Shown here in pieces: positions 8,236-54,355 of a DNA stretch of 64,000 nt; the first letter of the stretch is position 1; each line of letters begins with the position of its first letter. The position numbers and the translations under genes are program-made. This stretch comes from Clostridia bacterium (GTDB lineage Bacteria; Bacillota; DULZ01), in assembly GCA_012840125.1 (NCBI GenBank), contig DULZ01000044.1, forward strand, positions 17,975-81,974. Reading direction: 5' to 3'. Under the pieces are notes generated by a model. It saw only the letters and a list, made by a program, of their open reading frames with translations. It did not search any database and was not told the DNA's origin.

Positions 8236-8286
8236 CCTGTTAACAATTTTGCCAGGTATACGATCCCAATGCAAGCCGCGGGCAGT

Positions 8287-8320: not shown

Positions 8321-8439
8321 CACAGGTATAATTAGCCCTGGGCGGGGGCCCAGGGGGCAGCTTTCCATGGGTTAGCCGGCGGGAATAAGCGCCTTCATGA
8401 GCGAACACGCTGGATGCAGCTTCCGACCCGGCGTAACAG

Positions 8440-11400
8440 CTAAAAAGTCTTGCCCGGCTGCCAGCGGGAGAGCCGCGCGGCAATGATCCCGTGTCCCCGG
8501 TCCTGGACGGTGCCTTCCACCAGGATGAGACCGCTTCTTTGGCCGTAGATCTCCTGCCCGTAGCGCTGGTAAATGTCTTCAAACACCGTCACATCAACCA
8601 GGCCGTATTCATCTTCCACTGAAAAGAAGACCACCGTTTTGCCGCTCCTGGTAGGCGGGCGGTGGGGCCGCACCAGTATGCCGGCGATTTTCACCGCCGC
8701 CCCGGGGGGAAGCTCCCTGACACTGCGGCTGTGCTGGAACCCTTGCTGCTGCAACCACTGCCGGTAGTACGCCAGGGGATGGCAGCGCACATCAATCCCT
8801 AACACCTCTTTTTCCTGCCGGTGTTTTTCCCAGGGGGTGAAATCAGCGGCGATCCGCTCCTCTGCCACCGGCACCAGACCCGTTTCCTCTACTTGCTCCA
8901 AAAGGGGCACCTGCCAGAGGAGCTGCTTCCGGTTGGGATGGAGCCCGTCAAAAGCCCCGCTTAAAATCAGGTTTTCCAGGATGTGCCTGGGGGCCTTGAT
9001 CCTCTTTTGAAAATCAACAATAGAAGTATAAGGTTGGCCTGCTAAAATGGCCTGCAGCACCTCCCGGCTCATGCCCTTAACCTGGGCCAGGGAAATGCGG
9101 ATGGCGCCGTCCTCCACCAGAAAAGCGGCGCCGCTTTTATTGATATCCGGGGGCAAGATGGCAATCCCCCGGCGGCGGGCTTCCACGCATAAGGTATTGG
9201 CATCGTAATAGCCCATGGGCTGGTGGCTTAAGAGGGCGGCGAAATAATAAGCCGGGTAGTGACACGCCAGGTAAGCGGAGCGATAAGAGGTATTGGCGAA
9301 AGCCGCGGCATGGGCTTCACAGAAACCGTAGCTGGCATACCCCAAAATACAGCGAAAAATATCCTCCGCCACTTTTTGGTCCACCCCTTGGGCCTGGGCT
9401 TTGGCCACAAAGAGCTTTCCCAGCTCCTCCATTTCCTTCCGGGACCGGGAATGGCTCATCACCCGCCGCATCCGGTCCGCTTCTCCCCGGGTAAAACCGG
9501 CGACGGCGGTGGCTATTTCGATCACCTGCTCCTGGAAGAGAATAACCCCCCGGGTTTTTTTAAGGATCGGCTCCAGCTTGGGATGAAGGTAGGTGACTTC
9601 CTCCAAACCAAGTTTTCGCCGGATAAAAGGTTCCACCATGTCGCCTTTAATGGGCCCCGGTCTAATCAAGGCCAGGCTGGCCACCAGGTCCTCCTGGGTG
9701 GAAGCATGCAGGCGCTGCTGCAGGGCTCGCTGGGCCGGGCTTTCCAGTTGAAACACCCCGATAGTTTCCCCCCGGTTGATCATTTGGAAGGTGGCTTCGT
9801 CCACCGGCGGTATCCGCTCCTCGCAGAAATCTTCCCGTTCCCCGGTAAGAACCCGGACGGTATCCTCCAGCACCGACAACATCCGCAGGGAAAGGAGGTC
9901 CAGTTTCAGGAGCCCCAGTATTTCCACCCCATCTTTATCAAATTGGGTGACCACCACCCCTTTAGCCGCCCGCTGCAAAGGGGTGATGTTCGTTAAAGGC
10001 TGCCGGCTGATCACCAGTCCTCCCAGGTGGGTCCCCATAAACCGGGGCAGTCCCGCCACCTGCCCGCAGAAATGAAACAGCTGTTGGTACTTTTCCCCTT
10101 TAAGATCGCTTTTCCGGAGCTCCGGCAAGCGCTCCAAGAGGGCGGGAATAGCATCGGCATACGCATGGGGAAACAACTTGGCTATCCGGTCCAATTCTTC
10201 CGGCGCCAATCCCATGGCCCGGCCCAGGTCCCGGATGGCCGAACGGGCTTGAAAAGTATTGTACGTGCCCACGGAGGCCACATGCTCCGCCCCGTACTTC
10301 CGGTAAACGTAATCCGCCACCTGATCCCGGTAGCGGGCGTCAAAATCAATGTCAATATCCGGCTGCTCCCCTCTTTCCCGGCTCATGAAACGCTCAAACA
10401 AAAGCCCTCTCTCCAGCGCATCCACTTCCGTAATATACAAGCAGTAGCTGACCAGGGAATCCGCCGCCGAACCCCGGCCGGCATAGCGGATACCCTGCCG
10501 GCGAGCGAACATGGCCACATCCCATACCAGCAGGAAGTAGTCCGCATAACCCAGCTCATTGATCACCACTAATTCATAGTCCAACCGCTCCCGCACCCGG
10601 CGGCTGAGTTTCCCGTAGCGCCGGCGGGCACCCTCATACACCAGGCGCCGCAAGAAGCTCTCCGCCGTCTCCCCCGCCGGCAAAGAAAACTCGGGATAAT
10701 GCTTGGCGGACAGATCCAGGGGCGCCTCGCATTTCTCCGCTATCAAAAGGGTGTTTTGCACCGCTTCAGGATAATCCCGGAAAAGCGCCTCCATTTCCGC
10801 CGGTGTCTTAAGGTAATTCTCCTGGTTTAACGGGCGGTCCGGATGGATATCCGCCAGCCGGGTCAGGGTGCGCACGCAAGTTAAAAGATCATGCACCGGG
10901 AATTGCTCCGGCTCGGCGTAGTGGACGTTATTAGCGGCTACCAGGGGCGCGCCCGTCACCTGGGATAGCTGGGCCAGGCAGCGGTTTAAAGACCGGTCCC
11001 CGGGCAGCATGGTTTGTTCCAGTTCCAGGTAAAAATTTTCCCGGCCGAAAATGTCCTGGTACCGCCGCACCCGCTCCAGGGCTTCCCGGTACCTTTTTCT
11101 TAAGAGTAAAAAAGGAATCTCTCCCTTCCGGCAGCCGGACAAAGCGATTAAATCGCTATGGTATTCTTTCAGAGCAGCCAGGGTGACCCTGGGCTGTCCC
11201 CGGGGGTGATCCAGGTGGGCCCTGGTGAGAAGCCGGCAGAGGTTGGCATAGCCGCCGGCATTTTGGGCCAGCAGCACCAGGTGAAAGCCCTGCTCCAAAG
11301 TAACCTCGGCCCCGATGATGGGCCGGATCCCTACCTTTTGGCAGCGTTCCTGGAAAAAAGGCGCCCCCGCCACGTTGTCGTGATCCGTCAAGGCCAGGGC

Positions 11401-41920: not shown

Positions 41921-43081
41921 TTACGCCGCTTGAGCGTTTTTCCCGGCTTCCTCCGCCCCGGCATGCTCATGCCCGGCAAAAAGGTTGAAATTTTCGGCAA
42001 TAAAAGTGTATACCAGTACCCCCGCGGCAACCAGCATCGCCGTCACGCTGATCTCCATCCAGCTGGGAAAATAGGACCCGCCGGCTGCGCCCGCCATCCC
42101 AATTAGAGCCACGTTGAACCGGTTCAGCATCACGCCGCCCACCACAAGTGCACCAATTGTCGCAAGCCCCTGGCTGTTACGCCGTACAGCGGGAATAGAA
42201 GCCATGATGCCGGGAGCAATCACACCGACGACCATTTCCAGCAGCCACATGTTGCTTTCCAAGGAAGTGGTGAAGACGGTGCCAAGCTGGCCCCGCACGT
42301 ACAAGTCCGTCACTTTCACTAGGAAGTAAATGCCTAAGATGACCGGTAACCCTTTGGCAAAATCAGCCAAGATCGGAGTCTCCGACTTGAGCCCAAAAGC
42401 ACGGGTGGCTAAGCTTGTTTCCACGATAACCATCCCGATCCCCACCGCCAGGGCGCTCAGGAAAAACATGATGGGCAGGATCGGGGTCCACCACAGGGGA
42501 TGGAGTTTAGACGGTACCAGGAGAAACAGGGAGCCCAAGGAAGACTGGTGCAAAGTAGAAAGAATGATACCGGCACCAACCAGCGGAATAGTAATGCGGT
42601 GCAAAACCCTGATCGCCTTTTGCCGGCGGAATCTTTCGAACACCACCGGGCTGAACTCCAGCGCCAGCACCGTTAAATACAGCATGACACACCAGGCAAC
42701 CTCAAACATCACGGACCGGGGCTGCCACATAACGATGGGATGCCAGATGTTGTAGTATTTACCCAAGTCAAAGACCAGTCCCATCGCCACCAGCACATAA
42801 CCGATGAAGCCCGTTAAAATGGCCGGTCTTAAAAGGGGAGCAAATTTCTTCTTATTAAAGATGTAAACCGCTGCCGCCGTAGTAAAGGCGCCGGCAGCCA
42901 GGGCCACTCCACAAATCACGTCGAAAGCAATCCACAATCCCCAGGGATACTGGTCCGTGAGATTGGTTGCCGCCCCTAATCCTTTAAAAAAGCGCACGTA
43001 ACTGGATACTAAACCGAGGAGGACTATGGCGATCAATACTCCCCTGGTAGGTGTCATTTTGAAAGTCCACTTCCGCTTCAT
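41921..43081 (-). CDS. hybB: NrfD/HybB-family quinone-interacting membrane subunit
   Basis: TNLTDQYPWGLWIAFD, DLGKYYNIWHP, SVMFEVAWCV, LSTLHQSSLG, LNRFNV. Confidence 0.85.
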   Translation of the reverse strand: MKRKWTFKMTPTRGVLIAIVLLGLVSSYVRFFKGLGAATNLTDQYPWGLWIAFDVICGVALAAGAFTTAAAVYIFNKKKFAPLLRPAILTGFIGYVLVAMGLVFDLGKYYNIWHPIVMWQPRSVMFEVAWCVMLYLTVLALEFSPVVFERFRRQKAIRVLHRITIPLVGAGIILSTLHQSSLGSLFLLVPSKLHPLWWTPILPIMFFLSALAVGIGMVIVETSLATRAFGLKSETPILADFAKGLPVILGIYFLVKVTDLYVRGQLGTVFTTSLESNMWLLEMVVGVIAPGIMASIPAVRRNSQGLATIGALVVGGVMLNRFNVALIGMAGAAGGSYFPSWMEISVTAMLVAAGVLVYTFIAENFNLFAGHEHAGAEEAGKNAQAA

Positions 43082-43938
43082 TGCTTATCACCCCGATCCT
43101 TAGTCAACTGGTAAGCTGTTCCCAAGACCAGCGCACCCCCCACCACCACGGCGGGAATCTTGGATAGAGCCATCTGGGTGTATTCGGGCAGGGGCCGGGT
43201 TCCCACATTGGACGGGAAGCCCAACTGTTCAAAGGGTACATCTGACAGGAACATGAAAGATGTTCCTCCCACTTCTGCCAGGCCGTAAATATGAGGTACA
43301 TACTTATCAGGTTCGGCTTGCAGGCGAGCTTTTGCTTCCGCCACCAGCTCTTCCCTGGTGCCGAACAAAGTGGCTTTAGTGGGACAAGCGGAGGCACAAG
43401 CCGTTGGTTCCCCTGCTTTAACCTTATCCGCACAGAAAATGCATTTCCGGATCACGGGAAACGGGCTGTCCCATTGGTATTTCGGCACATTAAAAGGACA
43501 AGCCACCATGCAGTACCTGCACCCCATGCACTTGCCCCCGTCGTAAACCACCGGTCCTTCCGGTGTTTTAATCAAAGCCCCCACCAGGCAAGCGGAGACG
43601 CAAGCGGGATCATGGCAGTGGAAACATTGATGCCTGACAAAACGTTTTTCCTTGCTGCCCTTTATATCTACTTCATAAGACTTTACGGCCACCCAGGTCT
43701 CGGCGTCCAATACTTCATTTTGCGTACCGGACAGCCCGTTCTGCTGCTGGCATGCCATGTAGCACATACCGCAGCCGATACACTTGGTAATATCAATTAA
43801 CATGCCTTTGGCCTCCGGGCTTAGCGCAGGTGACGACCCGTGACCGGAGCCAATACCTGCTTGCGCTTTGCCTGCGGGGAACAAGGCTAAAGCGGCAGCG
43901 CCGAGACCGGCCATTTTCAGGAATTTTCTTCTATTCAT
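43078..43938 (-). CDS. hybA: Tat-exported 4x[4Fe-4S] protein, HybA/NrfC-like
   Basis: MNRRKFLK Tat signal; CIGCGMC, CFHCHDPAC, CMGCRYC, CIFC...ACASACP; C-terminal TM anchor. Confidence 0.88.
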   Translation of the reverse strand: MNRRKFLKMAGLGAAALALFPAGKAQAGIGSGHGSSPALSPEAKGMLIDITKCIGCGMCYMACQQQNGLSGTQNEVLDAETWVAVKSYEVDIKGSKEKRFVRHQCFHCHDPACVSACLVGALIKTPEGPVVYDGGKCMGCRYCMVACPFNVPKYQWDSPFPVIRKCIFCADKVKAGEPTACASACPTKATLFGTREELVAEAKARLQAEPDKYVPHIYGLAEVGGTSFMFLSDVPFEQLGFPSNVGTRPLPEYTQMALSKIPAVVVGGALVLGTAYQLTKDRGDKQ

Positions 43939-44694: not shown

Positions 44695-45615
44695 TTAAGG
44701 CAGCATTCCGTCCATTTCCCCGCCTGCCTGGCCGGTCAAGGTGATCACCAGTTGTCCCGGCACACAGACGATGGATTGTCCCGGCCGGCTGATAAACCCG
44801 GTCCTGACACAGGCTTGATCAGGGCAGCCCGCAGCCTGGATGCGGATTTTACCTTCCCGCACCTCCACGGTATAGGTGTGGCCCCGGCCTTGTACCGGAT
44901 ACACCCCGTCCTCCTCCAGGGAAACCTTTAGAATCCTTTCCCCGCCCACTTTGACTTCCGCCATACCAGCGGCAGCGCCTTTCGCGCCTGGCCCAGTGAA
45001 CGGAACAGCAACGCTTAAGACCAGGCAACATGCCAAGAGGCTCACAGCCTTCCAGTCGGGGCGGCAAAAGGAAACGGATCTTCCCTCGAAAAGCTTGATC
45101 AGGGGACGACTCAGGCCTGCTACCAGGGCACCGCAGGGCACGGCTGCCAGGGTGAGCATCGGTAAATACCAGGCCAGGGCCCCATGACTCAAAAGAAAAC
45201 GTGCCGCCAGCAGCTGCCCCCAGTTATGGGCGACGGCACCGGCCATACTGGTCGTCACCAGGTCCCCCTTGTCTTGGCGGAACGCCTGCCAGGCATACAT
45301 GACCAGGATACTGGCCAATCCCCCGGTCAAGCCCAGGTAGAATCCTATGGATAATAATTTGCCTGTCAGGATGCCCCCCAGGACCTGGCGGCACACCACC
45401 AAAACAAAAGCCGGCCTCCAACCCCAGAGCTCCAACGCCAAGAGCGCCGCGGTATTGGCCAGCCCCAGCTTCACACCGGGTAATCCTAACGGGGGCAACA
45501 TCCCCTCCACCGCCTGCAGTATAAGAGCCAGTGCCAGCAGCACCCCCAAACGGGCCACCGGCTGGGCCCCTCTTAACCCGAGGGCGGCAGGTTTGGTTAG
45601 GGACAATTCTTTCAT
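44695..45615 (-). CDS. Fusion of a Gx-transporter (HepS-I-like) domain and a NusG-domain-II-like protein
   Basis: N-terminal PGVKLGLAN, GAVAHNWGQ; extra TM helix; C-terminal GCPDQACVRTGFI...IVCVP. Confidence 0.8.
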   Translation of the reverse strand: MKELSLTKPAALGLRGAQPVARLGVLLALALILQAVEGMLPPLGLPGVKLGLANTAALLALELWGWRPAFVLVVCRQVLGGILTGKLLSIGFYLGLTGGLASILVMYAWQAFRQDKGDLVTTSMAGAVAHNWGQLLAARFLLSHGALAWYLPMLTLAAVPCGALVAGLSRPLIKLFEGRSVSFCRPDWKAVSLLACCLVLSVAVPFTGPGAKGAAAGMAEVKVGGERILKVSLEEDGVYPVQGRGHTYTVEVREGKIRIQAAGCPDQACVRTGFISRPGQSIVCVPGQLVITLTGQAGGEMDGMLP

Positions 45616-45625: not shown

Positions 45626-46657
45626 CTACTCAGGAAAGGATATGGAATCTTTCACGCCGCTGCTCACTTGTACATTCAAGTCCCGGTCAATCATGACACA
45701 ATCCACGCCGGGCCAGTTCTCCACCAGGGCCATGCCTGCTTCCGGCCCCAGGATAAAGACGGCTGTGGCCAGCCCATCCGCCAGCACCCCGCTGGGCGCC
45801 AGGATCGTCACACTGGTTAACTCCCGGGCCGGATAACCGGTAAAGGGATGCAATAAATGAGAAAAACGCTGTCCTTCGTAAAAGCGATAACGCTGGTAAT
45901 CACCGGAAGTGGTGACCGCCCGGTCCTGTACCGTCACCACGGCTATTGCCCGGGACGGGTCCCGCGGGTGGCGGATGCCCAGTTTCCAGGGCCGGCCTTC
46001 CGGATGCCGGCCCAGGACGTAATAATCACCACCGAAATCGATCAAGGCGTTTTCGATCCCCCAGCTTTTCACAAGGGCAGCAATCAGGTCCACAGCATAG
46101 CCTTTGGCGATACCTCCCACATCCAACTTCATCCCGGGCTGGGCCAGCTGCACCAGCCCGCGGGCCGGATCGAGCTTAAGCTCCCGGTAATCCACTAACC
46201 GGCAGGCTTGGGCCACCTCCGCCTGCCCGGGGGGTTGCCAGTTCTCCTGCGCCTCCGGTTTTGAGGCAGGCCCGATCTGCCACAGCTCCGCCAAGGGACC
46301 GATGGTGGGATCAAAATAACCTCCCGTCCTGGCGGCCAAGTCCCGGGCTTGTATCAATAAATCCATGGTCTTATCGCTCACGGGAACCTGTTGACCGGCC
46401 TGGGCATTAATGCGGCTGATGTCGCTGTCAGGGGAAAAACGGTTGAACAACCGGTCCATCTCCGCCAGCTCATTGATCACGGCTTCTTTTTGCGCACCGG
46501 TCAAGCCGGGGGTGGTTAAGCGGAAATAGGTATCCATGCTGAAGGTCTCCAACTGTTCCAGTCGGGGAGGTGGCTCTTTAGTGCAGCCCGGCCAAACCAC
46601 GGCCCCAAGAAGCACCAAGCACCACAGGCTCGCCCGGGCCAGTTTTTTCCCTCCCAT
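45626..46657 (-). CDS. apbE: FAD:protein FMN transferase lipoprotein ApbE
   Basis: Lipobox WPGC; SMDT, FDPTIGPL, DVGGIAKGY, TSGDYQR, ADGLATA. Confidence 0.93.
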   Translation of the reverse strand: MGGKKLARASLWCLVLLGAVVWPGCTKEPPPRLEQLETFSMDTYFRLTTPGLTGAQKEAVINELAEMDRLFNRFSPDSDISRINAQAGQQVPVSDKTMDLLIQARDLAARTGGYFDPTIGPLAELWQIGPASKPEAQENWQPPGQAEVAQACRLVDYRELKLDPARGLVQLAQPGMKLDVGGIAKGYAVDLIAALVKSWGIENALIDFGGDYYVLGRHPEGRPWKLGIRHPRDPSRAIAVVTVQDRAVTTSGDYQRYRFYEGQRFSHLLHPFTGYPARELTSVTILAPSGVLADGLATAVFILGPEAGMALVENWPGVDCVMIDRDLNVQVSSGVKDSISFPE

Positions 46658-46687: not shown

Positions 46688-47518
46688 TTAAGCCAGCAGT
46701 TTTTGTTCCGGGGATACGGTTTTCGTCAGTTCGATACAACCGGACGGGCATTTAGCGGCACAAGCACCGCAAGCGATGCATTTCGTCACATCTACCTGTG
46801 CCAGGTTGTTCACCATGGACACGGCTTGCTGCTCGCAGGCCTTCACGCAGGCCCGGCATGCCAAACAACCGACCTGGCAGTACTCCCTGACCATCTTTCC
46901 TTTATCATGGGAATTGCAGCGAACTACTAAAGGCACATCATAGTCCATTACAGCCAAAACTCTACGAGGACAAGCTGCCGCACAAGCACCGCAGCCGGTG
47001 CACTTTTCTTTATCCACCACCGGCAGGTGATCTTCGCCCAGGGTGATGGCACCGAAAACGCACACGGTGGTGCAGGTCCCCAAGCCCAGGCAGCCTTCAT
47101 GGCACCCCTTGGGACTGGACCCGATCAGGGACGCGGCCCGGCAGTCCTTGATCCCCTCGTATTGAGCCAACCACCTGGCCAGCTTGTAATCACCCCGGCA
47201 GCGTACCTTCACCACTTGTTTTTTCCGGGTTCCGGAAGCTTCTACCCCCAGAATGGCACAGATTTCTTTTTTCGCCTCGGCATCAACCACCCGGCAAGCA
47301 TCCACCGAGGCCGCTCCCGCCGCCAGGGCTTCAGTATAACCGGAACAGCCGCTGCAGCCGCAGCTGCCGCAGTTGGCGCCCGGCAAGAAGGAAGCCAGCA
47401 GCTCCACTTTGGGATCGCTGTCCACCTTGAACTTACCTGCCGCCCAGGCCAACCCTGCCGCAAACACAACCCCCAGTCCACCCATTACACCGGCGGAAAC
47501 CAAGACTTCCTTTAGCAT
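46688..47518 (-). CDS. rnfB: Rnf subunit B (polyferredoxin)
   Basis: TM anchor, LPGANCGSCG, GCLGLGTC, CTGCGAC, GCLACRAC, CIACGAC. Confidence 0.92.
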   Translation of the reverse strand: MLKEVLVSAGVMGGLGVVFAAGLAWAAGKFKVDSDPKVELLASFLPGANCGSCGCSGCSGYTEALAAGAASVDACRVVDAEAKKEICAILGVEASGTRKKQVVKVRCRGDYKLARWLAQYEGIKDCRAASLIGSSPKGCHEGCLGLGTCTTVCVFGAITLGEDHLPVVDKEKCTGCGACAAACPRRVLAVMDYDVPLVVRCNSHDKGKMVREYCQVGCLACRACVKACEQQAVSMVNNLAQVDVTKCIACGACAAKCPSGCIELTKTVSPEQKLLA

Positions 47519-47551: not shown

Positions 47552-48133
47552 TCACATAGGCACTAACCCGGAAAAGCCCAGAAAAGCCATCGACATGATA
47601 CCGGCGATGATTAGGGCCAAGCTGGTCCCTTTAAAGGCCGGCGGCACGTCCGCAAATTCCAGTTCTTCCCTGATACCCGCCATCATCACCAGGGCAAATG
47701 TGAAACCTGCACCCGCTCCAATGGCAAAGACCGTGGTTTCCAAGAAAGTGTACGTGCTTCCGGCCACAATTAACGCAATGCCGAGGATGGCACAGTTAGT
47801 GGTAATCAAGGCCAAATAAATACCCATGGCTTGATACAACTGCGGGAAAAACTTTTTCAGCATCATCTCCAGCAGCTGCACTAAACAAGCAATCATCAAA
47901 ATGAATACCACGATTTTCATAAACTCCAGGCCCAAGGGATCCAGGATGTATTCGTAGACCAGCCAAGAAGCCATGGCGGACACCACAAGTACAAATGACG
48001 CGGCCAACCCCATGCCCCAGGCGGCATCCAGTTTCCGGGTCATGCCCAGGAAAGGACAGATGCCCAGGAAACGCGCCAGCACAAAGTTGTTGACCAGGGC
48101 GGATCCTACCAGCAAGAGCAGCAACTCTTTCAT
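47552..48133 (-). CDS. rnfA: Rnf subunit A
   Basis: NNFVLARFLGICPF, LITTNCAILG, AGIREE; both Fe-S Cys present. Confidence 0.95.
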   Translation of the reverse strand: MKELLLLLVGSALVNNFVLARFLGICPFLGMTRKLDAAWGMGLAASFVLVVSAMASWLVYEYILDPLGLEFMKIVVFILMIACLVQLLEMMLKKFFPQLYQAMGIYLALITTNCAILGIALIVAGSTYTFLETTVFAIGAGAGFTFALVMMAGIREELEFADVPPAFKGTSLALIIAGIMSMAFLGFSGLVPM

Positions 48134-48789
48134 GATTTCGCGGCCTCCTTCCCGACCAGCCTAATTTGATGCCTAGCGGCCTGCTGGAATTGACGCGCCC
48201 GGCGCATTTCCACAAAGTTGAGGACAAAGACGATGAGGCCCATGGTCAGGAAAGCCCCGGGAGGCATCTGCATGATCTTCCACGGTATAAAGCTTTCCCC
48301 CATGATTTGAAAACCAAACAGAGTGCCGGCACCCAGCAGTTCCCTGACGCAGCCGATGAAAGTCAAAGCCCAGGTAAAGCCTAAACCAGTGCCGACGGCA
48401 TCGGTAACAGCCCGGGAAATGGGCATTTTGGAGGCAAAGGCTTCGGCTCGCCCCAGGATAATGCAGTTCACGACGATGAGAGGCACAAATATGCCTAGAA
48501 TTTTATAAATCTCCGGCAGCATGGCTTTTAATAACAGATCCACAATGGTCACAAAAGTAGCGATAATCACGATATAGGCGGGGATGCGAATCTGGCTGGG
48601 AATTAGCTTTTTCAAAGCCGAGATGATGGTGCTGGAGCAGATTAAAACCGCCGTCGTAGCCAACCCCATGATCAAACCGCTTTCCGCAGAAGTGGTCACC
48701 GCCAGCGGGGGACACATCCCGATCAACATCCTAAAGGTCGGGTTTTCCCGGAACAGGCCCCGCAGGATATCATCAAAATGATGTTGCAT
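48130..48789 (-). CDS. rnfE: Rnf subunit E
   Basis: ENP...GMCPPLAVT, IRIP, PLIVVNCIILGRAE, PPGAF. Confidence 0.95.
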   Translation of the reverse strand: MQHHFDDILRGLFRENPTFRMLIGMCPPLAVTTSAESGLIMGLATTAVLICSSTIISALKKLIPSQIRIPAYIVIIATFVTIVDLLLKAMLPEIYKILGIFVPLIVVNCIILGRAEAFASKMPISRAVTDAVGTGLGFTWALTFIGCVRELLGAGTLFGFQIMGESFIPWKIMQMPPGAFLTMGLIVFVLNFVEMRRARQFQQAARHQIRLVGKEAAKS

Positions 48790-48801: not shown

Positions 48802-49359
48802 TTACTCCTCTCCTACATAGGCCAGCACCTGCTGCACCGTAGTGCCCACCGTAGCCGTCACCGCTACCGAGGAAACGGTAGCCCCGGTAATGCCGTCCAC
48901 GTCTTGGCCTACGGCAAAGGGATCCCCCACCGGTTTCCCTGGAAACTGGCTCAAAAAGGCTTCATCGGTTTCAATGCGGGAACCCAAGCCCGGCGTCTCC
49001 CCGTGGCTCAACACTTTGATGCCGGCCAGGGAGTTAGTGCTGAGATCGATGCCGACGGCTATTTTCATCTCCCCGCCGTAGCCCGTTCCCACGGCCTCAT
49101 ACGCAATACCGATCCTGCGGTTGTTTTCATCCAACCCTTCATAGACTTGGGTGACCCCGGCCGGCAGCTCCCCCTGCGCTTCCACCGCTTGGAAACGCTG
49201 GGCCGCAGGCAGCACTTCCTTAAAGCCTTTACTGATCATTTCCTCCATCTGCCTGGCTTCCACGATGGGCATGGTAAAACTGTAAAACGCTCCTAATCCG
49301 CCACCGGAAATCGCTGCAATGAGACCGAGAGTCAAAATCAACTTGATGGCATTTTTCAT
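48802..49359 (-). CDS. rnfG: Rnf subunit G (covalent FMN)
   Basis: TM anchor, GYGG, HGETPGLG, intact DGITGAT flavinylation motif. Confidence 0.93.
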   Translation of the reverse strand: MKNAIKLILTLGLIAAISGGGLGAFYSFTMPIVEARQMEEMISKGFKEVLPAAQRFQAVEAQGELPAGVTQVYEGLDENNRRIGIAYEAVGTGYGGEMKIAVGIDLSTNSLAGIKVLSHGETPGLGSRIETDEAFLSQFPGKPVGDPFAVGQDVDGITGATVSSVAVTATVGTTVQQVLAYVGEE

Positions 49360-50306
49360 ATGGCGGCTCCCCTCCTTTTAGCCCGCAAGAAACGATTGAG
49401 CATGGGCGTTAAACCGTTCATGAGCAAGACAGCGTAAAAAAGGGCATCGGGATTCTGCCCGTAGTATCGCATCACAACCGTAAACAAACCCACACCTATC
49501 CCAAACACCAACCTGCCCCAAGGGGTAATCGGGTTGGTAACCGGGTCCCCGGCCAGGTAAAAAGCTCCCAGGATTAATCCCCCTACCAGCAAATGCCACA
49601 GGGGATCTTCGCCCACCAGGAGCATGAAAATGCCCACCGCGGCCAGCATACCGAGGGGGATTCTCCAATCCACGTAACCCTTGGCCACCAGTACCAGGCC
49701 TCCCAAAACCAGCGCCACCACGGCGAATTCCGCCATGAAACTACCCGTACTTCCCAGAAGCAGGGATTGATAACCGGGTAACGCTTCCCCGGCTTTCCAC
49801 AAATCCATCGGGCTTGGCACTCCCGTACCGCCGGAGAAAGGCAGGGTCCAATTGCTAACCTGTTCCGGGAAGGAAACAGCCAGGAAAACACGGCCTACCA
49901 CCGCCGGATTAAATGGGTTGCACCCGGTTCCACCGAAGACCTGCTTGCCAATGGTAATGGCAAAGACAGCACCCAGCATCGCTGCCCAAAAAGGCACCGT
50001 CGGGGGCAGGGTCAAAGCCAGAATCAACCCTGTTAAAACAGCCGTACCGTCCATGAGGCTTAAAGGCTTGTTTCTCAGTTTCAGGCAAGCTGCCTCCGTC
50101 AAGACCGCCGTACCCACACAGAGGGACAGCACCAGCAGGGCCGGCCAGCCGAACAGGTACAGCACCCAGAGCACCGCCGGCATTAATGAACCAATAGTCC
50201 AGTACACAATCTTGTCTACGGAAATGGCCGCATGAATGTGAGGCGGCGGGGAAGTAATCAGCCTCAAATGATAGATTCTTTTTTCCTCGGCCTTTAGCAC
50301 AGACAT
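49356..50306 (-). CDS. rnfD: Rnf subunit D, divergent flavinylation loop
   Basis: TSPPPH, KQVFGG...NPFNPA, GDPVTNP, LLMN; WTLPFSGGTGVPSP instead of D-x-x-(T/S)-x-A-T-P; start ATG 50306. Confidence 0.88.
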   Translation of the reverse strand: MSVLKAEEKRIYHLRLITSPPPHIHAAISVDKIVYWTIGSLMPAVLWVLYLFGWPALLVLSLCVGTAVLTEAACLKLRNKPLSLMDGTAVLTGLILALTLPPTVPFWAAMLGAVFAITIGKQVFGGTGCNPFNPAVVGRVFLAVSFPEQVSNWTLPFSGGTGVPSPMDLWKAGEALPGYQSLLLGSTGSFMAEFAVVALVLGGLVLVAKGYVDWRIPLGMLAAVGIFMLLVGEDPLWHLLVGGLILGAFYLAGDPVTNPITPWGRLVFGIGVGLFTVVMRYYGQNPDALFYAVLLMNGLTPMLNRFLRAKRRGAAI

Positions 50307-50332
50307 TTTTGTCACCTCCTTGACCAACGCTC

Positions 50333-51598
50333 CTAGCTGACCAGCATCTTTTTCGCCAGTCTCAGTAACTGCAGTAAGGGTTTCCCGGCAGGGCAAACAT
50401 AAGAGCACCGGCCGCACTCATTACACAACAAAACCCCTTCTACCTTGGCCGCTTCCCAGTTTTGTCGCGCTGCATAAGCGGCAATTCGCTGGGGCAATAG
50501 TTTAACCTGGCAGACTTGGTAGCACCGGCCGCAGTGAATGCAAGCCCGGTCCAGGTAATGAAAAACCTCATCTTCACAGAAAGTCAGGATGGAAAAAACT
50601 CCTTTGCCGACAGGCAAGTCAAGCCTGGGTACGGAAGTACCGTTGAGAGCGCAGCCTACCACCACCTTGGCCAGCTCCGTTTCCTTGACTTCGGCGGAAA
50701 TGAGCACTTCTCCCAGGTCAGTTCCCAACGGCACTTGATAATAGCCCGGTCTCCTGACCCCGTTTCCTTCCACCAAAATCAACTGTTCCATATACGGTTC
50801 TCCCAGGAACAGGGCCCGGTGAATTGCCCTGGCTTGCTGCAGAGTGACCGGCAAAATCTCTTCCGCCAGCGGCGAGGCGCCCCGCTCCAGGGGACGACCG
50901 GCGATTTCTTCCACCGCCCATTTCACCGGCATATCGGGTGAATTCCCGGCACCGGGCAAAGTCCTGGCTTTAGGGAATTCGCTCAACAATGTCTTAAGGG
51001 TGGGACTGGGGTGGCTGTGCCAGACTAACCCAGCCTCCGGGTACAGTGTGAATAAGACCCGCAAGCCGGAGATTACCTCATGAAACCAAGGAGGCAACTC
51101 TTCCCCACCGGACCCGTTAAGCGCCCCCACCCACCCGTGGAGAAGGAGGGTATGGATGCCGGCTCCGGGAGACGGCAGCCCGTACACAAAAGTGGTCCCG
51201 TCCACAAAAGTAATCACAATCCCCGCTGCATTTAATCGTTCATAAATCTCCGCCGCCGTCATGCCATTTATACCTGTTATTTTGGACAACTCTACACTTT
51301 CCCCCAAACCGTCATTCTCCACCACTACCGTGGTGGCCGGCACACCTTCACAGTTATCCATCACCGCAATTTGTTTCACTCTACCGCTCACGGGACTGTG
51401 AACCGCTGCCCCTCCGGTCACCGCCACCGGCTGTCCCCGTAAAACTCTCGTGCCGGGCTCCACCAGCACCTCACAGGGCAAATCTTGACGCTGGCACGGT
51501 ATCCTGACCACCGGCGGAAGGGTCACAGGCAGTATCTCCAGGTCATGGGGAACAGATTGCTTCTTTTCGTCATGTTTTCCGAAAGTCGATGATATCAT
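50333..51598 (-). CDS. rnfC: Rnf subunit C homolog lacking FMN/NADH motifs
   Basis: VHSPVSG, AAGIV, SLBB region and two Fe-S motifs (CIHCGRC, CNECGRCSYVCP) kept; GGAGFP, NGAECEP, YPQG, GGPMMG replaced. Confidence 0.85.
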   Translation of the reverse strand: MISSTFGKHDEKKQSVPHDLEILPVTLPPVVRIPCQRQDLPCEVLVEPGTRVLRGQPVAVTGGAAVHSPVSGRVKQIAVMDNCEGVPATTVVVENDGLGESVELSKITGINGMTAAEIYERLNAAGIVITFVDGTTFVYGLPSPGAGIHTLLLHGWVGALNGSGGEELPPWFHEVISGLRVLFTLYPEAGLVWHSHPSPTLKTLLSEFPKARTLPGAGNSPDMPVKWAVEEIAGRPLERGASPLAEEILPVTLQQARAIHRALFLGEPYMEQLILVEGNGVRRPGYYQVPLGTDLGEVLISAEVKETELAKVVVGCALNGTSVPRLDLPVGKGVFSILTFCEDEVFHYLDRACIHCGRCYQVCQVKLLPQRIAAYAARQNWEAAKVEGVLLCNECGRCSYVCPAGKPLLQLLRLAKKMLVS

Positions 51599-51818: not shown

Positions 51819-52541
51819 TTAATCCGCATTTCTCACTTGTACCTCTCCGCCGCCGAACTTGTAACCTACCCCCCAGACGGTTTTAATGTAGCGCGGATTG
51901 GATGGGTCTTTCTCGATTTTTTCCCGCAGGCGACTGACCATTACTGTGACGTTATCTGCATCACCTATATAATCGCTGTCCCAGATCTGGTCCAACAAGT
52001 TCTCTCTCGTAAAAACATAGTCGGGATGAGATGCGAGCAACCACAACAGCTTAAACTCTTTCGGCGTCAGCTGTACCTCTTTACCGTCGAGCATTACCAA
52101 ATGCCCGCGCAAATCGATAAAGAGACCATTGCATTTAATGACATTGGGTTCTGCCGCTTTACTGCTCCTTTGCCCGGCGGTCCTTCGCAACATGGCTTGC
52201 ACCCGGAGAGCCAGCTCCGAAGGGCTGAATGGCTTGGTGAGGTAATCATCGCCACCCATCCTGAAGCCCAGCAGCCGGTCTAACTCGTCCCCCCGGGCGG
52301 ACAGGATGATAATGGGCACATCCGATTCTTCTCTCATCACCCGGCAGACCTCAAAGCCATCAACTTTCGGCAGCATCAAATCCAGGATCACCAGGTCGGG
52401 TTTTTCGCGCCGGAACACTTCAATGGCCTCTTCCCCGTCGCTGGCGGTAATGATTTCGTGCCCCTCCCTGGACAGCCGGTGCACAATCACCTTTAGAATA
52501 TCAGGTTCATCGTCTACCGCCAAGATTCTGCTACCTGCCAT
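51819..52541 (-). CDS. OmpR-family response regulator
   Basis: VDDEP, LDLMLP, GGDDYLTKPF, LTPKEF, IKTVWGVGY winged HTH. Confidence 0.95.
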   Translation of the reverse strand: MAGSRILAVDDEPDILKVIVHRLSREGHEIITASDGEEAIEVFRREKPDLVILDLMLPKVDGFEVCRVMREESDVPIIILSARGDELDRLLGFRMGGDDYLTKPFSPSELALRVQAMLRRTAGQRSSKAAEPNVIKCNGLFIDLRGHLVMLDGKEVQLTPKEFKLLWLLASHPDYVFTRENLLDQIWDSDYIGDADNVTVMVSRLREKIEKDPSNPRYIKTVWGVGYKFGGGEVQVRNAD

Positions 52542-54225
52542 CTTCTGTCACCCCCGCTTCTTTTAAGATTTTTGGTATCGTAAAGTAAAAATTGGATCCC
52601 ATACCTAAATCGCTTTCCACCCAGATCCTCCCCCCATGCATTTCCACAAAGCTCTTCGCAATAGCCAGGCCCAATCCTGTGCCCGGGTGCTTGCGGGTAG
52701 ACGAACCGTCCACTTGACGGAACGCCTCAAAAATATATTCCTGTTGTTCGGGAGCAATGCCTATCCCCGTGTCGCTGACGCAGACCAGCACTTCCTGCTC
52801 ATGCTCCTTATAGCAAGCTTTGATGCGCACCAATCCTCCCGCATCAGTGAATTTCACGGCATTGCTGATCAAGTTGACCAGGACCTGATCTACTTTCTCC
52901 TTGTCTGCGTACACCTCTGTACCGGGAAGTTCTTCCTCCACCAGTATCCTGACTTCCTTTTTTAAGGCGATGGGCTCCATGCGATGGGCCACATCCCGGA
53001 TCACATCTGCCATGGCAAACCAGGAAGGCAGTAAACCCATCTTTTTCGCTTCGATTTTGGCCATATCCAGAATAGCATTGATGGAAGTCAACAATCGCTG
53101 GCTGCCTCGCAGGACGTCGTTGAGGTATTCTTTTTGCAGGTCTGTCAACTCTCCTCCCACCCCCTCTAACAGGAGCTCCACAAAGGCCGTAATGGAAGTC
53201 AGCGGTGTGCGGAGCTCATGGCTCACGCTGGCCAGGAACTCTGACTTTAACTTATTCGCTTCCGCCAAACGGCGGTTGGCTTTCCGCAACTCTTCCTGCT
53301 GCTGCTTCAGAATCTCGTTGGCATGCCGCAGTTCGGCGGTTCGCTCGGCCACCTGGTGTTCCAGGTCATCGTAATATCGTTTCAGGCGGGTGGCCATACT
53401 GTCCAATTGCTTCGCCAGCTGGCGAATTTCCACCGGAATGGTAATGTTAGGCAAGGGATAATCCAAGTGCCCTTCCCCGATGGCCGTGGCGGCCCAAGCC
53501 AGTTTCGTCAACGGGCGTTCCACCAGCTGCCGCACAAACCAGTAAATAGCCAGGGCACTTAACACGATGAGGGAGCCGGTGATGGCCACTTGGGCGATGG
53601 TTTCAGTACGCAGGGTTTCCTCCAGCACCACCATGGGTATCCCTAGACTCACGGCCCCGGCCAGTTCCCCCAGTTCATACCGGGGTACTTCCTGGGAAAA
53701 GGCAATGCGGCTGTCATTGCTGTGACAAGTCAGGCAGGGCTCTTCAATATGGATCGGCAATAAATACCGGAAATACCTCCTGCCGTCGATGGTATCAATG
53801 CCCCAGGCCTCTTGGGCATTCTGACCTGCCCGCAGTTGGCCTAACAGCTCCAGCTCAAATGCATCGGGTGCATGGAGGTCATCACTGCTAGGCAGCCAGA
53901 TTTCTTTAAAAAACCAGGCCTCATCCCCGCGAAACAGCTCCCGCACCCCTTTTTCCGCCGCCGCCGGGTCCAAGTGTTCAAACTGGGCCAGGTTCTTGGG
54001 ATCGGTACCGGGATAGTAATACTGGTAACTCTCTGCCACGAAAGCCCGCGTAGCCAAAAACTGGGACGCAGCCACCCTGGCCTTGTCCATCAGTTCGGCT
54101 TCCGCCCTGGCTTTTTGCCGCTCGAAAGTCCAAACAAAACTTACCACGGACACCCAGATGGTAATGATGGCCAGACACAAAACCAACCGGACTCCCAGCT
54201 TGTCAAGCAATCTGGCGTTTTTCAT
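52531..54225 (-). CDS. Sensor histidine kinase with an extracytoplasmic heme-c (DUF3365-like) domain and HAMP
   Basis: TM - YFRYLLPIHIEEPCLTCH - TM, HAMP, SHELRTPL, NLISNAVKF, GTGLGL. Confidence 0.9.
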   Translation of the reverse strand: MKNARLLDKLGVRLVLCLAIITIWVSVVSFVWTFERQKARAEAELMDKARVAASQFLATRAFVAESYQYYYPGTDPKNLAQFEHLDPAAAEKGVRELFRGDEAWFFKEIWLPSSDDLHAPDAFELELLGQLRAGQNAQEAWGIDTIDGRRYFRYLLPIHIEEPCLTCHSNDSRIAFSQEVPRYELGELAGAVSLGIPMVVLEETLRTETIAQVAITGSLIVLSALAIYWFVRQLVERPLTKLAWAATAIGEGHLDYPLPNITIPVEIRQLAKQLDSMATRLKRYYDDLEHQVAERTAELRHANEILKQQQEELRKANRRLAEANKLKSEFLASVSHELRTPLTSITAFVELLLEGVGGELTDLQKEYLNDVLRGSQRLLTSINAILDMAKIEAKKMGLLPSWFAMADVIRDVAHRMEPIALKKEVRILVEEELPGTEVYADKEKVDQVLVNLISNAVKFTDAGGLVRIKACYKEHEQEVLVCVSDTGIGIAPEQQEYIFEAFRQVDGSSTRKHPGTGLGLAIAKSFVEMHGGRIWVESDLGMGSNFYFTIPKILKEAGVTEDGR

Positions 54226-54355
54226 CGGTACCGTCTCCGTTCTGATAAAATAAAGCAACACAAACTCAAAGAAAGGTTAACTTCTATGCAATATTTTAAC
54301 ATGTTCTAGCGTTCACAAACAAGGTTAAAACAGGTAATTTTGATTATTTCATCGA

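What the first reader, a model, noticed from the sequence alone, without database searches (positions are those of the whole stretch)
49356..50306. RnfD lacks the ApbE flavinylation motif
Seen: the loop after the conserved WT reads LPFSGGTGVPSPM where canonical RnfD has D-x-x-(T/S)-x-A-T-P-L; only a Ser aligns with the FMN-bearing Thr. Known: covalent FMN on RnfD is the entry point from RnfG back across the membrane. Inference: a second, independent break in the return path, consistent with the RnfC change and more suggestive of redesign than of random decay.
Basis: partly seen in the sequence, partly recalled or inferred. Interest (0 to 1): 0.7.

Follow-up and report, generated by a model that had tools for sequence, protein, structure and literature searches.

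The report
RnfD without its flavin-attachment site
The membrane subunit RnfD of this bacterium's only Rnf respiratory complex has lost the sequence to which a flavin is normally welded. The same loss goes together with loss of the NAD(H) site in RnfC here and in at least three unrelated lineages, which marks a class of Rnf complexes that most likely do not use NAD+.

Summary
In RnfD (49356-50306, minus strand) the loop W153-M167 reads WTLPFSGGTGVPSPM. Ser165 aligns with the FMN-bearing Thr156 of A. woodii and Thr153 of C. tetanomorphum. The Asp, the Ser/Thr and the Ala of the ApbE motif are gone.

This is not decay. The change defines one monophyletic Bacillota clade (100/100 support). The gene is under purifying selection (dN/dS 0.07-0.11), and Ser165, Pro166 and Trp170 are invariant while the six residues before them vary freely.

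Every clade member also has an RnfC without the GGAxFP, ECEP and YPQG motifs but with both [4Fe-4S] motifs. The same double loss recurs independently in two Thermodesulfobacteriota-type lineages and in Methanosarcinales/ANME-2 archaea. The archaeal type is the MmcA-linked Rnf, which in M. acetivorans does not use NAD.

Two exceptions show that the losses can be uncoupled. L114 has lost only the RnfC site and L111 only the RnfD acceptor.

The riboflavin ligands N133 and D254 and the RnfC clusters are kept, so the D/C arm is remodelled rather than dead. Most likely RnfD carries no covalent FMN, and electrons leave from RnfG on the outer face towards the Tat-exported Fe-S/NrfD pair encoded downstream. 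I rate it a new variant of a known kind.

The parts
49356..50306 (-). rnfD, 316 aa (P0001), variant without the ApbE flavinylation motif
   Evidence: PF03116 318.7 bits and TIGR01946 268.5 bits. AF2 model has pLDDT 86 and TM-score 0.86 to A. woodii RnfD 9eri_D. Strong Shine-Dalgarno sequence before the ATG at 50306.
49806..49850 (-). Loop W153-M167 (WTLPFSGGTGVPSPM). The Ser165 codon AGC at 49812-49814 takes the place of the FMN-bearing Thr.
   Evidence: Alignment to 9eri_D and 7zc6_D. S165, P166 and W170 are invariant in the clade while residues 158-164 are hypervariable. The Ser codon is AGY in all nine clade loci. Ser165 directly precedes helix 166-172 in the model.
49908..49910 (-). Codon of N133, equivalent to the riboflavin ligand N123 of A. 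woodii RnfD; retained
   Evidence: Invariant in the clade and in canonical RnfDs. Ligand role taken from PMC11889175.
49545..49547 (-). Codon of D254, equivalent to the riboflavin ligand D249 (A. woodii) and D248 (C. tetanomorphum); retained
50333..51598 (-). rnfC, 421 aa. The NuoF-like FMN/NADH motifs are lost; two CxxCxxCxxxCP motifs are kept.
   Evidence: Pfam finds only RnfC_N plus Fer4 domains, and TIGR01945 scores 195.6 bits against a cut-off of 246. Alignments to 7zc6_C and 9eri_C and to canonical RnfCs show the lost motifs. A genome-wide PF01512 search does not hit it.
48802..49359 (-). rnfG, 185 aa, one FMN_bind domain with the canonical DGITGAT motif
   Evidence: PF04205 59 bits; motif read in the sequence.
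48130..48789 (-). rnfE, with the GMCP and VNCIILG cysteines
   Evidence: PF02508 217 bits; sequence.
47552..48133 (-). rnfA, with the GICP and TNCAILG cysteines
   Evidence: PF02508 196 bits; sequence.
46688..47518 (-). rnfB, a polyferredoxin
   Evidence: FeS and Fer4 domains; NF041836 and PRK07118 about 241-243 bits.
45626..46657 (-). apbE, a lipoprotein-type flavin transferase and the only ApbE of the genome
   Evidence: PF02424 288 bits. It is the only match above the family cut-off in the genome.
44695..45615 (-). Fusion of Hpre_diP_synt_I (Gx-transporter-like) and NusG_II domains
   Evidence: The same gene also sits next to canonical rnf operons, so it is not specific to the variant.
43078..43938 (-). 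Tat-exported 4x[Fe-S] protein (Fer4_11) with a C-terminal membrane anchor
   Evidence: The twin-arginine signal MNRRKFLKMAGLGAAALA is read in the sequence; PF13247 72.7 bits. Homologues lie next to the rnf operon in the clade loci whose flank reaches that far. Among about 90 canonical loci only one (L107) has a hit to it.
41921..43081 (-). NrfD-family (quinone-interacting) membrane protein
   Evidence: PF03916 71 bits. Syntenic in L002/L006, L004 and L109.
51819..54261 (-). OmpR-type response regulator plus a histidine kinase with a Tll0287-like CxxCH sensor domain, directly upstream of rnfC
   Evidence: The same pair lies upstream of the variant rnf operon in L002, L004 and L109.

Best explanation
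This rnfD belongs to a small Bacillota clade of Rnf complexes that have been rewired away from NAD+.

Shown:
- The ApbE recognition motif in the periplasmic loop of RnfD is gone. Only Ser165-Pro166 remain.
- The NuoF-like FMN/NADH site of RnfC is gone.
- Both genes are under purifying selection.
- The two losses are evolutionarily coupled, here and in at least three other lineages.

Inferred:
- RnfD no longer carries a covalently bound FMN.
- Ser165 is kept as the N-cap of the short helix 166-172, or possibly as a hydrogen-bond partner, and not as a flavinylation site.
- Electrons from ferredoxin still run from RnfB through the RnfA/E [2Fe-2S] centre to the covalent FMN of RnfG on the outer face. 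Ion pumping sits in RnfA/E according to the A. woodii work.
- From RnfG they mainly leave outward, most probably to the Tat-exported Fe-S protein and NrfD-type subunit encoded downstream, and so to menaquinone. This parallels the methanogen Rnf, which passes electrons by way of the cytochrome MmcA to methanophenazine.
- The RnfD/RnfC arm keeps its riboflavin ligands and two [4Fe-4S] clusters. It therefore remains a scaffold and probably a minor or alternative one-electron path. Its cytoplasmic partner is unknown.
For: Motif loss:
- The alignments to solved RnfDs and to 104 canonical homologues show the loss.

Not decay:
- The clade is monophyletic with 100/100 support and sits behind the longest stem branch in the tree.
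- dN/dS is 0.07-0.11 for rnfD and 0.12-0.20 for rnfC.

No new recognition motif:
- The residues upstream of Ser165 differ in sequence and in length between clade members.
- The RnfG domains of the same organisms all keep D-x-x-T/S-x-A-T.
- The genome has a single ApbE, and it has a second canonical substrate with DLDGVSGAT.

Coupling with RnfC:
- All 13 clade loci with both genes readable pair the variant RnfD with an RnfC lacking GGxxFP, ECEP and YPxG.
- Nearly all of the roughly 90 loci outside the clade have a canonical RnfC; the one clear exception there is L108/L114 (RnfC site lost, RnfD motif kept).
- In an independent metagenome scan, about 45 loci without the acceptor, from Thermodesulfobacteriota-type and Methanosarcinales/ANME-2-type lineages, all have an RnfC without GGxxFP and (bar three weak E-x-E-P matches) ECEP. 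All 12 loci with the Thr acceptor and a readable RnfC have a canonical RnfC.
- The tree needs about 6 losses of the acceptor.

Outward partner:
- The Tat-exported Fe-S gene lies next to the variant operon wherever the flank is available (the NrfD gene with it in L002/L006, L004 and L109). Among canonical loci only L107 has an Fe-S hit and none an NrfD hit.
- menA is present on the same contig.
- RnfG has grown to 2-3 FMN domains in some clade members.

Pocket remodelling:
- The clade has its own substitutions beside or in FMN(RnfD)-cavity elements. Examples are T194 to F/Y and S195 to A next to C. tetanomorphum E185, and the N5-contacting S284 replaced by F290 or A.
Against: - No biochemical data exist for this complex.
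- Ser is a legitimate ApbE acceptor. Single substitutions of the motif's Asp, Gly or Ala only lower flavinylation (PMC12052999), so flavinylation of Ser165 is not excluded. Its invariance would also fit that reading.
- The riboflavin ligands N133 and D254 and all eight RnfC cluster cysteines are conserved in every NAD-site-less lineage. This argues that electrons still pass through RnfD and RnfC, and my model does not explain that.
- L111 (Thr to Asn with a near-canonical RnfC) shows that a complex can apparently do without the covalent link while keeping NAD+. L114 shows the converse.
- The link from RnfG to the Fe-S/NrfD pair rests on synteny only. The subclade L003/L110 has the Fe-S gene without NrfD.
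- The window's own RnfG has only one FMN domain.
Confidence: 0.55

Rival explanations
1. The flavin site of RnfD is still occupied, without the canonical covalent link. Either FMN is bound non-covalently, with Ser165 hydrogen-bonding the phosphate, or the covalent FMN of RnfG docks into the vacated pocket, as has been modelled for the two-subunit NQR/RNF-like complexes. Electrons then still cross RnfD through riboflavin to the two [4Fe-4S] clusters of RnfC. RnfC exchanges them with a cytoplasmic one-electron partner other than NAD+.
For: - The riboflavin ligands N133 and D254 are invariant.
- The RnfC cluster motifs are kept under purifying selection in every lineage that lost the NAD(H) site.
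- R139/K and E193 (C. tetanomorphum R130 and E185, which flank the FMN) are kept.
- The NQR/RNF-like precedent has an RnfD-like subunit without a flavinylation site and with a docking RnfG-like FMN (PMC11334425).
- L111 lacks the acceptor but keeps a near-canonical RnfC.
Against: - Several residues conserved in canonical RnfD near the FMN are replaced by bulky or non-polar ones: T194 to F/Y, S195 to A, S190 to F, and S284 to F290 or A.
- No candidate cytoplasmic partner is encoded in the conserved neighbourhood.
- The archaeal type has deleted the whole loop and partly lost the Asp ligand.
Confidence: 0.25
2. Ser165 is flavinylated by the operon's ApbE despite the non-canonical context. RnfD then keeps its covalent FMN, and only the RnfC end of the path has changed.
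For: - Ser165 and Pro166 are invariant over 16 sequences of 52-100% identity, and the Ser codon AGY shows only synonymous variation.
- Ser acceptors occur naturally in RnfD (L030, L024 and L083 read ...ASPL).
- ApbE tolerates single motif substitutions.
- apbE is encoded in the operon.
Against: - All four other motif positions are lost and the upstream residues vary in sequence and length, so no alternative recognition motif is conserved.
- Natural Ser-acceptor RnfDs keep the A-S context and mostly the Asp.
- The same single ApbE serves RnfG and a NapH/NosR-like protein, both with strictly canonical motifs.
- The other NAD-site-less lineages have Pro, Leu or Met at this position, or a deletion.
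- Ser, like the Asn seen in L111, P0140 and P0149, is a typical helix N-cap residue (general structural knowledge).
Confidence: 0.15
3. Relaxed selection or incipient pseudogenisation of a dispensable Rnf.
For: Two cofactor sites are lost in one operon. RnfC is the fastest-evolving subunit.
Against: - All eight genes are intact in every clade member.
- dN/dS is 0.02-0.2.
- This is the only Rnf in a 97%-complete genome.
- Clade-specific invariant residues exist.
- Synteny is conserved, including a dedicated two-component system.
Confidence: 0.03

Closest known systems
Canonical Rnf, the Na+/H+-translocating ferredoxin:NAD+ oxidoreductase (A. woodii 9ERI, C. tetanomorphum 7ZC6, A. vinelandii 8AHX)
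   Same: - Same six-gene operon rnfCDGEAB.
- Same RnfD fold (TM-score 0.86).
- Same riboflavin ligands.
- RnfG flavinylation motif, RnfA/E cysteines, RnfB polyferredoxin and the RnfC [4Fe-4S] motifs are all present.
   Different: - No D-x-x-[ST]-x-A-T motif in RnfD; a Ser stands in place of the FMN-bearing Thr.
- RnfC lacks the GGAxFP, ECEP and YPQG motifs of the FMN/NADH site.
- A Tat-exported Fe-S/NrfD pair and a haem-sensor two-component system are attached to the operon.
Methanosarcinales-type Rnf with the multihaem cytochrome MmcA (M. acetivorans ferredoxin:methanophenazine oxidoreductase; NCBIfam rnfC_Methano and rnfD_Methano)
   Same: - Does not use NAD(P) (PMC4023990).
- In relatives from Methanosarcinales, ANME-2 and Methanoperedens, RnfD has no flavinylation site and RnfC lacks the NAD(H)/FMN motifs but keeps two clusters.
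- RnfG keeps its motif, and an extracytoplasmic redox protein is encoded beside the operon.
   Different: - It is an independent lineage. The window's RnfD scores 202 bits on rnfD_Methano against a cut-off of 400.
- In the archaea the whole loop of about 19 residues is deleted, whereas here it is kept with Ser-Pro.
- The partner there is a c-type cytochrome and methanophenazine. Here it is a Tat-exported Fe-S protein, NrfD and presumably menaquinone.
- I did not read M. acetivorans' own sequence. The nearest named relative I read is from Methanohalophilus sp. (P0331).
Thermodesulfobacteriota-type Rnf lineages from sediment metagenomes (groups A and B)
   Same: The acceptor Thr of RnfD is replaced (by Pro, Leu or Met). 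RnfC has no GGxxFP and, bar three weak E-x-E-P matches, no ECEP, but keeps two clusters. RnfG is canonical.
   Different: - Separate origin in the tree.
- No Ser at the acceptor position.
- No Fe-S/NrfD homologue detected in the flanks.
- These complexes are uncharacterised.
Two-subunit NQR/RNF-like systems (Meheust et al. 2021, PMC8238504; Huang et al. 2024, PMC11334425)
   Same: The RnfD/NqrB-like subunit lacks the conserved flavinylation Thr and is paired with a flavinylated RnfG/NqrC-like subunit. Electron flow to the outside is proposed to be one-way.
   Different: Those systems keep the RnfD-side path, fused to an NAD-binding domain (PF00175), and lack RnfA, RnfB, RnfC and RnfE. Here the full six-subunit set is present and it is the NAD end that is lost.
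Na+-NQR (NqrA-F)
   Same: It is an Rnf descendant whose RnfC homologue NqrA lost its cofactors and which delivers electrons to a membrane quinone.
   Different: - NqrB keeps the covalent FMN (T236).
- NqrA has lost the Fe-S clusters as well.
- NqrF replaces RnfB.
- The window's RnfD scores far below the NqrB cut-offs: 133 bits against 414.

Membership tests
RnfD / NqrB family (PF03116; TIGR01946 rnfD) | Full-length profile match above the curated cut-offs | tested here: met
   PF03116 318.7 bits (cut-off 27.7); TIGR01946 268.5 bits (cut-off 207).
RnfD / NqrB family (PF03116; TIGR01946 rnfD) | Ten-helix RnfD fold | tested here: met
   AF2 model with pLDDT 86 and pTM 0.85. Foldseek TM-score is 0.86 to 9eri_D and 0.86 to 7zc6_D.
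RnfD / NqrB family (PF03116; TIGR01946 rnfD) | Encoded within an rnfCDGEAB operon | tested here: met
RnfD / NqrB family (PF03116; TIGR01946 rnfD) | Riboflavin ligands (A. woodii N123 and D249) | tested here: met
   N133 and D254 are invariant.
RnfD / NqrB family (PF03116; TIGR01946 rnfD) | FMN-bearing Thr in the periplasmic loop (A. woodii T156, C. tetanomorphum T153) | tested here: not met
   Ser165 aligns there.
ApbE substrate (flavinylation motif D-x-x-[S/T]-G-A-[S/T]) | Asp at position -6 | tested here: not met
   Gly159; no clade member has Asp here.
ApbE substrate (flavinylation motif D-x-x-[S/T]-G-A-[S/T]) | Ser/Thr at position -3 and a small residue at -2 | tested here: not met
   Gly162 and Val163. 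In the clade these positions hold P, G, T, V or I and V, I, A or T.
ApbE substrate (flavinylation motif D-x-x-[S/T]-G-A-[S/T]) | Ala at position -1 | tested here: not met
   Pro164. The clade has P, S, A, Q, R and others; Ala occurs in 3 of 16.
ApbE substrate (flavinylation motif D-x-x-[S/T]-G-A-[S/T]) | Hydroxyl acceptor (Ser or Thr) | tested here: met
   Ser165 is invariant in the clade.
ApbE substrate (flavinylation motif D-x-x-[S/T]-G-A-[S/T]) | Covalent FMN actually attached | not testable with these tools
   Needs in-gel fluorescence or mass spectrometry.
Ferredoxin:NAD+ oxidoreductase (canonical Rnf function) | NuoF-like FMN/NADH site in RnfC (GGAxFP, ECEP, YPQG; PF01512) | tested here: not met
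   No PF01512 hit in the protein scan or in the whole-genome scan, and the motifs are replaced.
Ferredoxin:NAD+ oxidoreductase (canonical Rnf function) | Ferredoxin-side path: RnfB clusters, RnfA/E cysteines and the RnfG flavinylation motif | tested here: met
   The sequences show GICP/TNCAILG in RnfA, GMCP/VNCIILG in RnfE and DGITGAT in RnfG.
Methanogen-type Rnf (NF041838 rnfD_Methano, NF041837 rnfC_Methano, with MmcA) | Equivalog score above the cut-off | tested here: not met
   rnfD_Methano 201.8 bits against 400; rnfC_Methano 161.6 bits against 650.
Methanogen-type Rnf (NF041838 rnfD_Methano, NF041837 rnfC_Methano, with MmcA) | MmcA-type multihaem cytochrome encoded with the operon | tested here: not met
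   No cytochrome lies between the two-component system and rnfC or downstream of rnfB. The archaeal loci have one scoring 359 bits on TIGR04314.
NQR/RNF-like two-subunit system | RnfD-like domain fused to a cytosolic NAD-binding domain (PF00175), and no RnfA/B/C/E | tested here: not met
   A 316-aa protein with the single domain PF03116; the full operon is present.
Na+-NQR subunit NqrB | Equivalog score above the cut-off | tested here: not met
   NF003756 133 bits against 414; TIGR01937 123 bits against 350.

The most novel reading that the evidence does not exclude
The joint loss of the RnfD flavinylation site and the RnfC NAD(H)/FMN site is a general, convergent signature of Rnf complexes that are not ferredoxin:NAD+ oxidoreductases. 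These complexes would release electrons from RnfG on the outer face of the membrane. In this Bacillota clade the outlet would be a Tat-exported Fe-S/NrfD pair, which makes the complex an ion-pumping ferredoxin:menaquinone oxidoreductase, a bacterial counterpart of the methanogen Rnf-MmcA system. The signature would also re-label many Thermodesulfobacteriota 'Rnf' complexes.
Probability: 0.4. Interest if true: 0.75.

Novelty: new variant of a known kind. Interest (0 to 1): 0.6.

Why it matters
Genome annotation pipelines call all these operons "RnfABCDGE" (ferredoxin:NAD+ oxidoreductase), and metabolic models built on such names would inherit that function. If the RnfD and RnfC site losses together mark NAD-independent complexes, two short motifs would be enough to sort Rnf operons by function. 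That would change the inferred energy metabolism of this Bacillota clade, of many Thermodesulfobacteriota MAGs and of ANME/Methanosarcinales.

It also gives a natural experiment on what the covalent FMN of RnfD is for. Lineages that drop NAD+ drop the covalent link, yet they keep riboflavin ligation (fully here, less strictly in the archaeal type) and the RnfC clusters. No current model explains that, and it can be tested directly.

Tried and rejected
- I first considered a gapped alignment that puts 'FSGGT' on 'xSGAT', so that Thr161 would be the acceptor. I rejected it. HMMER alignments to three solved RnfDs and MAFFT with 120 homologues all place Ser165-Pro166-Met167 on T-P-L, and Thr161 is not conserved in the clade.
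- I looked for a second Rnf or ApbE in the genome that could supply the missing functions. There is none.
I therefore could not measure distances from the substituted residues to the flavin pocket, and relied on residue numbers given in the structure papers.
- The enrichment of clade-specific substitutions in the four cavity helices is only about twofold (4 of 13 against roughly 1.9 expected) and I do not claim it as significant.
- dN/dS for the window against L109 has near-saturated dS (1.7-2.0). The unsaturated pairs L003/L110 and L003/L088 were used as well. Rows with about 25-30% identity come from loci that lack the gene and were ignored.
- Contexts of other acceptor-less RnfDs were mostly unhelpful. 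P0140 and P0146 are orphan genes without an operon, and P0149, P0158 and P0162 sit on contigs too short to show RnfC.
- Literature searches found no description of an Rnf with an NrfD/Fe-S partner or of this clade.
- One preprint states that the cofactor sites of M. acetivorans RnfC and RnfD are conserved. The archaeal sequences I read do not support that for RnfD.
Full report
**The gene and the observation**

The minus strand of the window carries one operon. In order it holds rnfC (50333-51598), rnfD (49356-50306), rnfG, rnfE, rnfA, rnfB and apbE. These are followed by a Gx-transporter/NusG_II fusion, a Tat-exported Fe-S protein and an NrfD-family protein. A haem-sensor histidine kinase and an OmpR-type regulator lie upstream.

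The ATG at 50306 follows a strong Shine-Dalgarno sequence and matches the N-termini of homologues. The 316-aa product is an unambiguous RnfD. It scores 318.7 bits on PF03116 and 268.5 bits on TIGR01946, above the cut-off. Its AlphaFold model (pLDDT 86) superposes on A. woodii RnfD with a TM-score of 0.86.

HMMER alignments to the solved chains put Ser165 of the loop WTLPFSGGTGVPSPM on the FMN-bearing threonine. That residue is T156 in A. woodii and T153 in C. tetanomorphum. The Asp, the Ser/Thr and the Ala of the ApbE motif are replaced by Gly, Gly and Pro.

**How unusual it is**

In 104 non-clade homologues the motif is D (97%), A (95%) and T (100%), followed by P-L.

The window's protein belongs to a tight group: P0003-P0016 plus P0036, together with loci L002-L006, L086-L088, L109 and L110. 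All members read x(5-12)-S-P-[LM]-[ED]-x-W. Ser165, Pro166 and Trp170 are invariant, while the preceding residues vary in sequence and in length.

- Among 1.84 billion representative proteins, the whole group collapses into one 50%-identity cluster.
- In a maximum-likelihood tree it is monophyletic (100/100) and sits on the longest internal branch, nested among canonical Bacillota RnfDs.
- The nearest outgroup, P0017/L127, has a canonical operon.
- The genome holds no second RnfD.

**Decay or design**

All genes of the operon are intact in every member. dN/dS is 0.07-0.11 for rnfD and 0.12-0.20 for rnfC, including pairs with unsaturated dS. The Ser165 codon is AGC or AGT throughout, one step from the ACY codon of Thr. 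There are clade-specific invariant substitutions: M34V, V37T, S88T, L95I, S190F, F237W, M251L, T253G and M255P. Some lie next to elements of the FMN(RnfD) cavity. T194 and S195, beside C. tetanomorphum E185, become F/Y and A. The position of the N5-contacting S284 holds F290 or A. This is a selected, remodelled protein and not a decaying one.

**What is kept**

The riboflavin ligands N133 and D254 (A. woodii N123 and D249) are invariant. So are R139/K and E193. RnfC keeps both CxxCxxCxxxCP motifs. The cytoplasmic half of the RnfD/RnfC arm therefore still looks like an electron-transfer module. For that reason I do not accept 'break in the return path' as shown.

**Is Ser165 flavinylated?**

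Serine is a legitimate acceptor, and single substitutions of the Asp, Gly or Ala only reduce flavinylation (PMC12052999).

Several points argue against flavinylation:
- All other motif positions are lost and no replacement motif is conserved.
- Natural Ser-acceptor RnfDs keep the A-S context, and mostly the Asp.
- The genome has a single ApbE. Its other substrates are RnfG and a NapH/NosR-like protein on contig C45, and both keep strictly canonical motifs.
- In the other NAD-site-less lineages the position holds Pro, Leu or Met, or is deleted.
- In the model Ser165 directly precedes helix 166-172. Ser, like the Asn found in other acceptor-less RnfDs, is a typical N-cap residue. This last point is my inference from general structural knowledge.

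I put flavinylation of Ser165 at about 15%.

**Co-occurrence with the RnfC change**

All 13 clade loci in which both genes can be read pair the variant RnfD with an RnfC lacking GGxxFP, ECEP and YPxG. Nearly all of the roughly 90 loci outside the clade have a canonical RnfC; the one clear exception is L108/L114, described below.

That is only one evolutionary event, so I looked for independent cases. Nine of 149 diverse representatives lack any hydroxyl acceptor. A metagenome scan seeded with three of them returned 74 loci, which fall into four sets:
- Group A (...EYPPLEV) and group B (Leu or Met at the acceptor) carry names from Thermodesulfobacteriota. 75 of the 118 nearest homologues have Pro at the acceptor position.
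- Group C has the whole loop deleted. It is Methanosarcinales/ANME-2/Methanoperedens. It scores 370 bits on rnfD_Methano and 404 bits on rnfC_Methano. An MmcA-type cytochrome scoring above its cut-off lies upstream.
- All acceptor-less loci have an RnfC without GGxxFP and (bar three weak E-x-E-P matches) ECEP but with two cluster motifs.
- The 12 loci with the Thr acceptor and a readable RnfC in the same scan all have a canonical RnfC.

A tree needs about six losses of the acceptor, with a bootstrap range of 5-7.

Two exceptions exist. L114, a third rnf operon of genome G021, has lost the RnfC GMGGAxFP segment but keeps DAATTATPR in RnfD. L111 has Thr replaced by Asn in an otherwise intact motif, together with a near-canonical RnfC. 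The two losses are therefore strongly but not absolutely coupled.

**Functional reading**

According to the A. woodii work, electrons run from RnfB through the RnfA/E [2Fe-2S] centre to FMN(RnfG), FMN(RnfD), riboflavin, the RnfC clusters, FMN(RnfC) and finally NAD+. Ion translocation is located in RnfA/E (PMC11889175).

[quoted passage not shown] Its relatives show exactly the double loss seen here.

In the window's clade the conserved extra genes are a Tat-exported, membrane-anchored four-cluster protein and an NrfD-type quinone-interacting subunit. The Fe-S gene is present in every clade locus whose flank reaches that far and the NrfD gene in L002/L006, L004 and L109. Among the canonical loci only L107 has an Fe-S hit and none has an NrfD hit. 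menA lies 6 kb beyond the window on the same contig. RnfG has expanded to two or three FMN domains in several clade members.

The most economical model is a ferredoxin-driven pump whose electrons leave from RnfG on the outer face to the Fe-S/NrfD pair and then to menaquinone. The conserved riboflavin ligands and RnfC clusters remain unexplained by this model. The main rival is that the RnfD pocket is still served, either by non-covalent FMN or by docking of the RnfG flavin as modelled for NQR/RNF-like systems (PMC11334425), and that RnfC talks to an unknown one-electron partner.

**Novelty**

RnfD-like proteins without the flavinylation threonine have been described for the two-subunit NQR/RNF-like systems. 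The NAD-independence of the methanogen Rnf is also known.

I found no description of three things:
- this Bacillota clade;
- its Ser-Pro remnant and its Fe-S/NrfD partner;
- the general coupling of the RnfD and RnfC losses across lineages.

One preprint states that the cofactor sites of M. acetivorans RnfC and RnfD are conserved. The archaeal RnfD sequences I read, which include a Methanohalophilus protein, lack the loop.

I class the finding as a new variant of a known kind.

**Limits**

There are no model coordinates for distance measurements. Taxon names of the Thermodesulfobacteriota and archaeal groups come from source annotations of MAG proteins. The correlation was not tested with a formal phylogenetic method.

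Noticed in passing
L114 (G021:C10:129000-147000), rnfC at 7187-8413 and rnfD at 8449-9468: This is a third rnf operon of a Bacillota genome that also has two canonical ones. Its RnfC has deleted the GMGGAxFP segment and reads NCAVSEP and RYPPLAEK. Its RnfD keeps a canonical DAATTATPR, and an ApbE gene follows rnfB. So the NAD(H)-site loss can occur without the RnfD loss.
   Followed up: partly
L111, rnfD at 7001-7930: A full rnfCDGEAB operon whose RnfD reads DGITAANPI (acceptor Thr replaced by Asn, rest of the motif intact). Its RnfC is near-canonical (GGEAVP, NGTECEP, RYPQGSEK). This looks like a recent loss of the covalent link alone.
   Followed up: partly
L172-L191 and L198; proteins P0271-P0345: RnfD of Methanosarcinales, ANME-2, Methanoperedens and Methanocellales has the whole flavinylation loop of about 19 residues deleted, and RnfC lacks the NAD(H)/FMN motifs. 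An MmcA-type cytochrome with 8 CxxCH motifs lies upstream. This is at odds with a published statement that the RnfC and RnfD cofactor sites are conserved in M. acetivorans (bioRxiv 10.1101/2022.07.20.500911).
   Followed up: partly
L128-L158, L160, L162 and L186; proteins P0388-P0505: This is a large group of RnfDs named as Thermodesulfobacteriota/'Deltaproteobacteria'. The acceptor position holds Pro in 75 of 118, or Leu/Met. They are paired with RnfCs lacking GGxxFP and (bar three weak E-x-E-P matches) ECEP. No multihaem cytochrome or Fe-S/NrfD homologue was seen in the flanks.
   Followed up: partly
L124 (6001-6966) and L126 (141-1103): Stand-alone RnfD-like genes without any other rnf gene nearby. 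One lies between ribosomal protein L5 and rpoA. Both lack the acceptor Thr.
   Followed up: no
rnfG of L004, L005, L087, L002 and L110 (two domains) and of L003 and L088 (three domains); window 48802-49359 (one domain): The number of FMN_bind domains in RnfG varies from 1 to 3 within the clade, joined by Pro/Glu-rich linkers. Each domain keeps D-x-x-T/S-x-A-T, with Gly, Ala or Met at the variable position.
   Followed up: partly
G000:C45:3-1217 (minus strand), outside the window: The second FMN_bind protein of the genome. It has an N-terminal membrane helix, a DLDGVSGAT flavinylation motif and a polytopic NapH/NosR-like domain with two CxxxCP motifs. It is another canonical ApbE substrate.
   Followed up: partly
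G000:C36:88013-88843, about 6 kb beyond the window's end: A menA homologue (245 bits on TIGR00751, cut-off 102) lies on the same contig as the rnf operon. A second, weaker one lies on C100.
   Followed up: no
window 50307-50417: A longer GTG-started reading frame (353 aa) overlaps the end of rnfC. The ATG at 50306, with its Shine-Dalgarno sequence and agreement with homologues' N-termini, is the likely true start. The clade has a conserved N-terminal extension of about 10 residues (IYxLTLITSPPPH) that is absent from canonical RnfD and has low pLDDT.
   Followed up: partly
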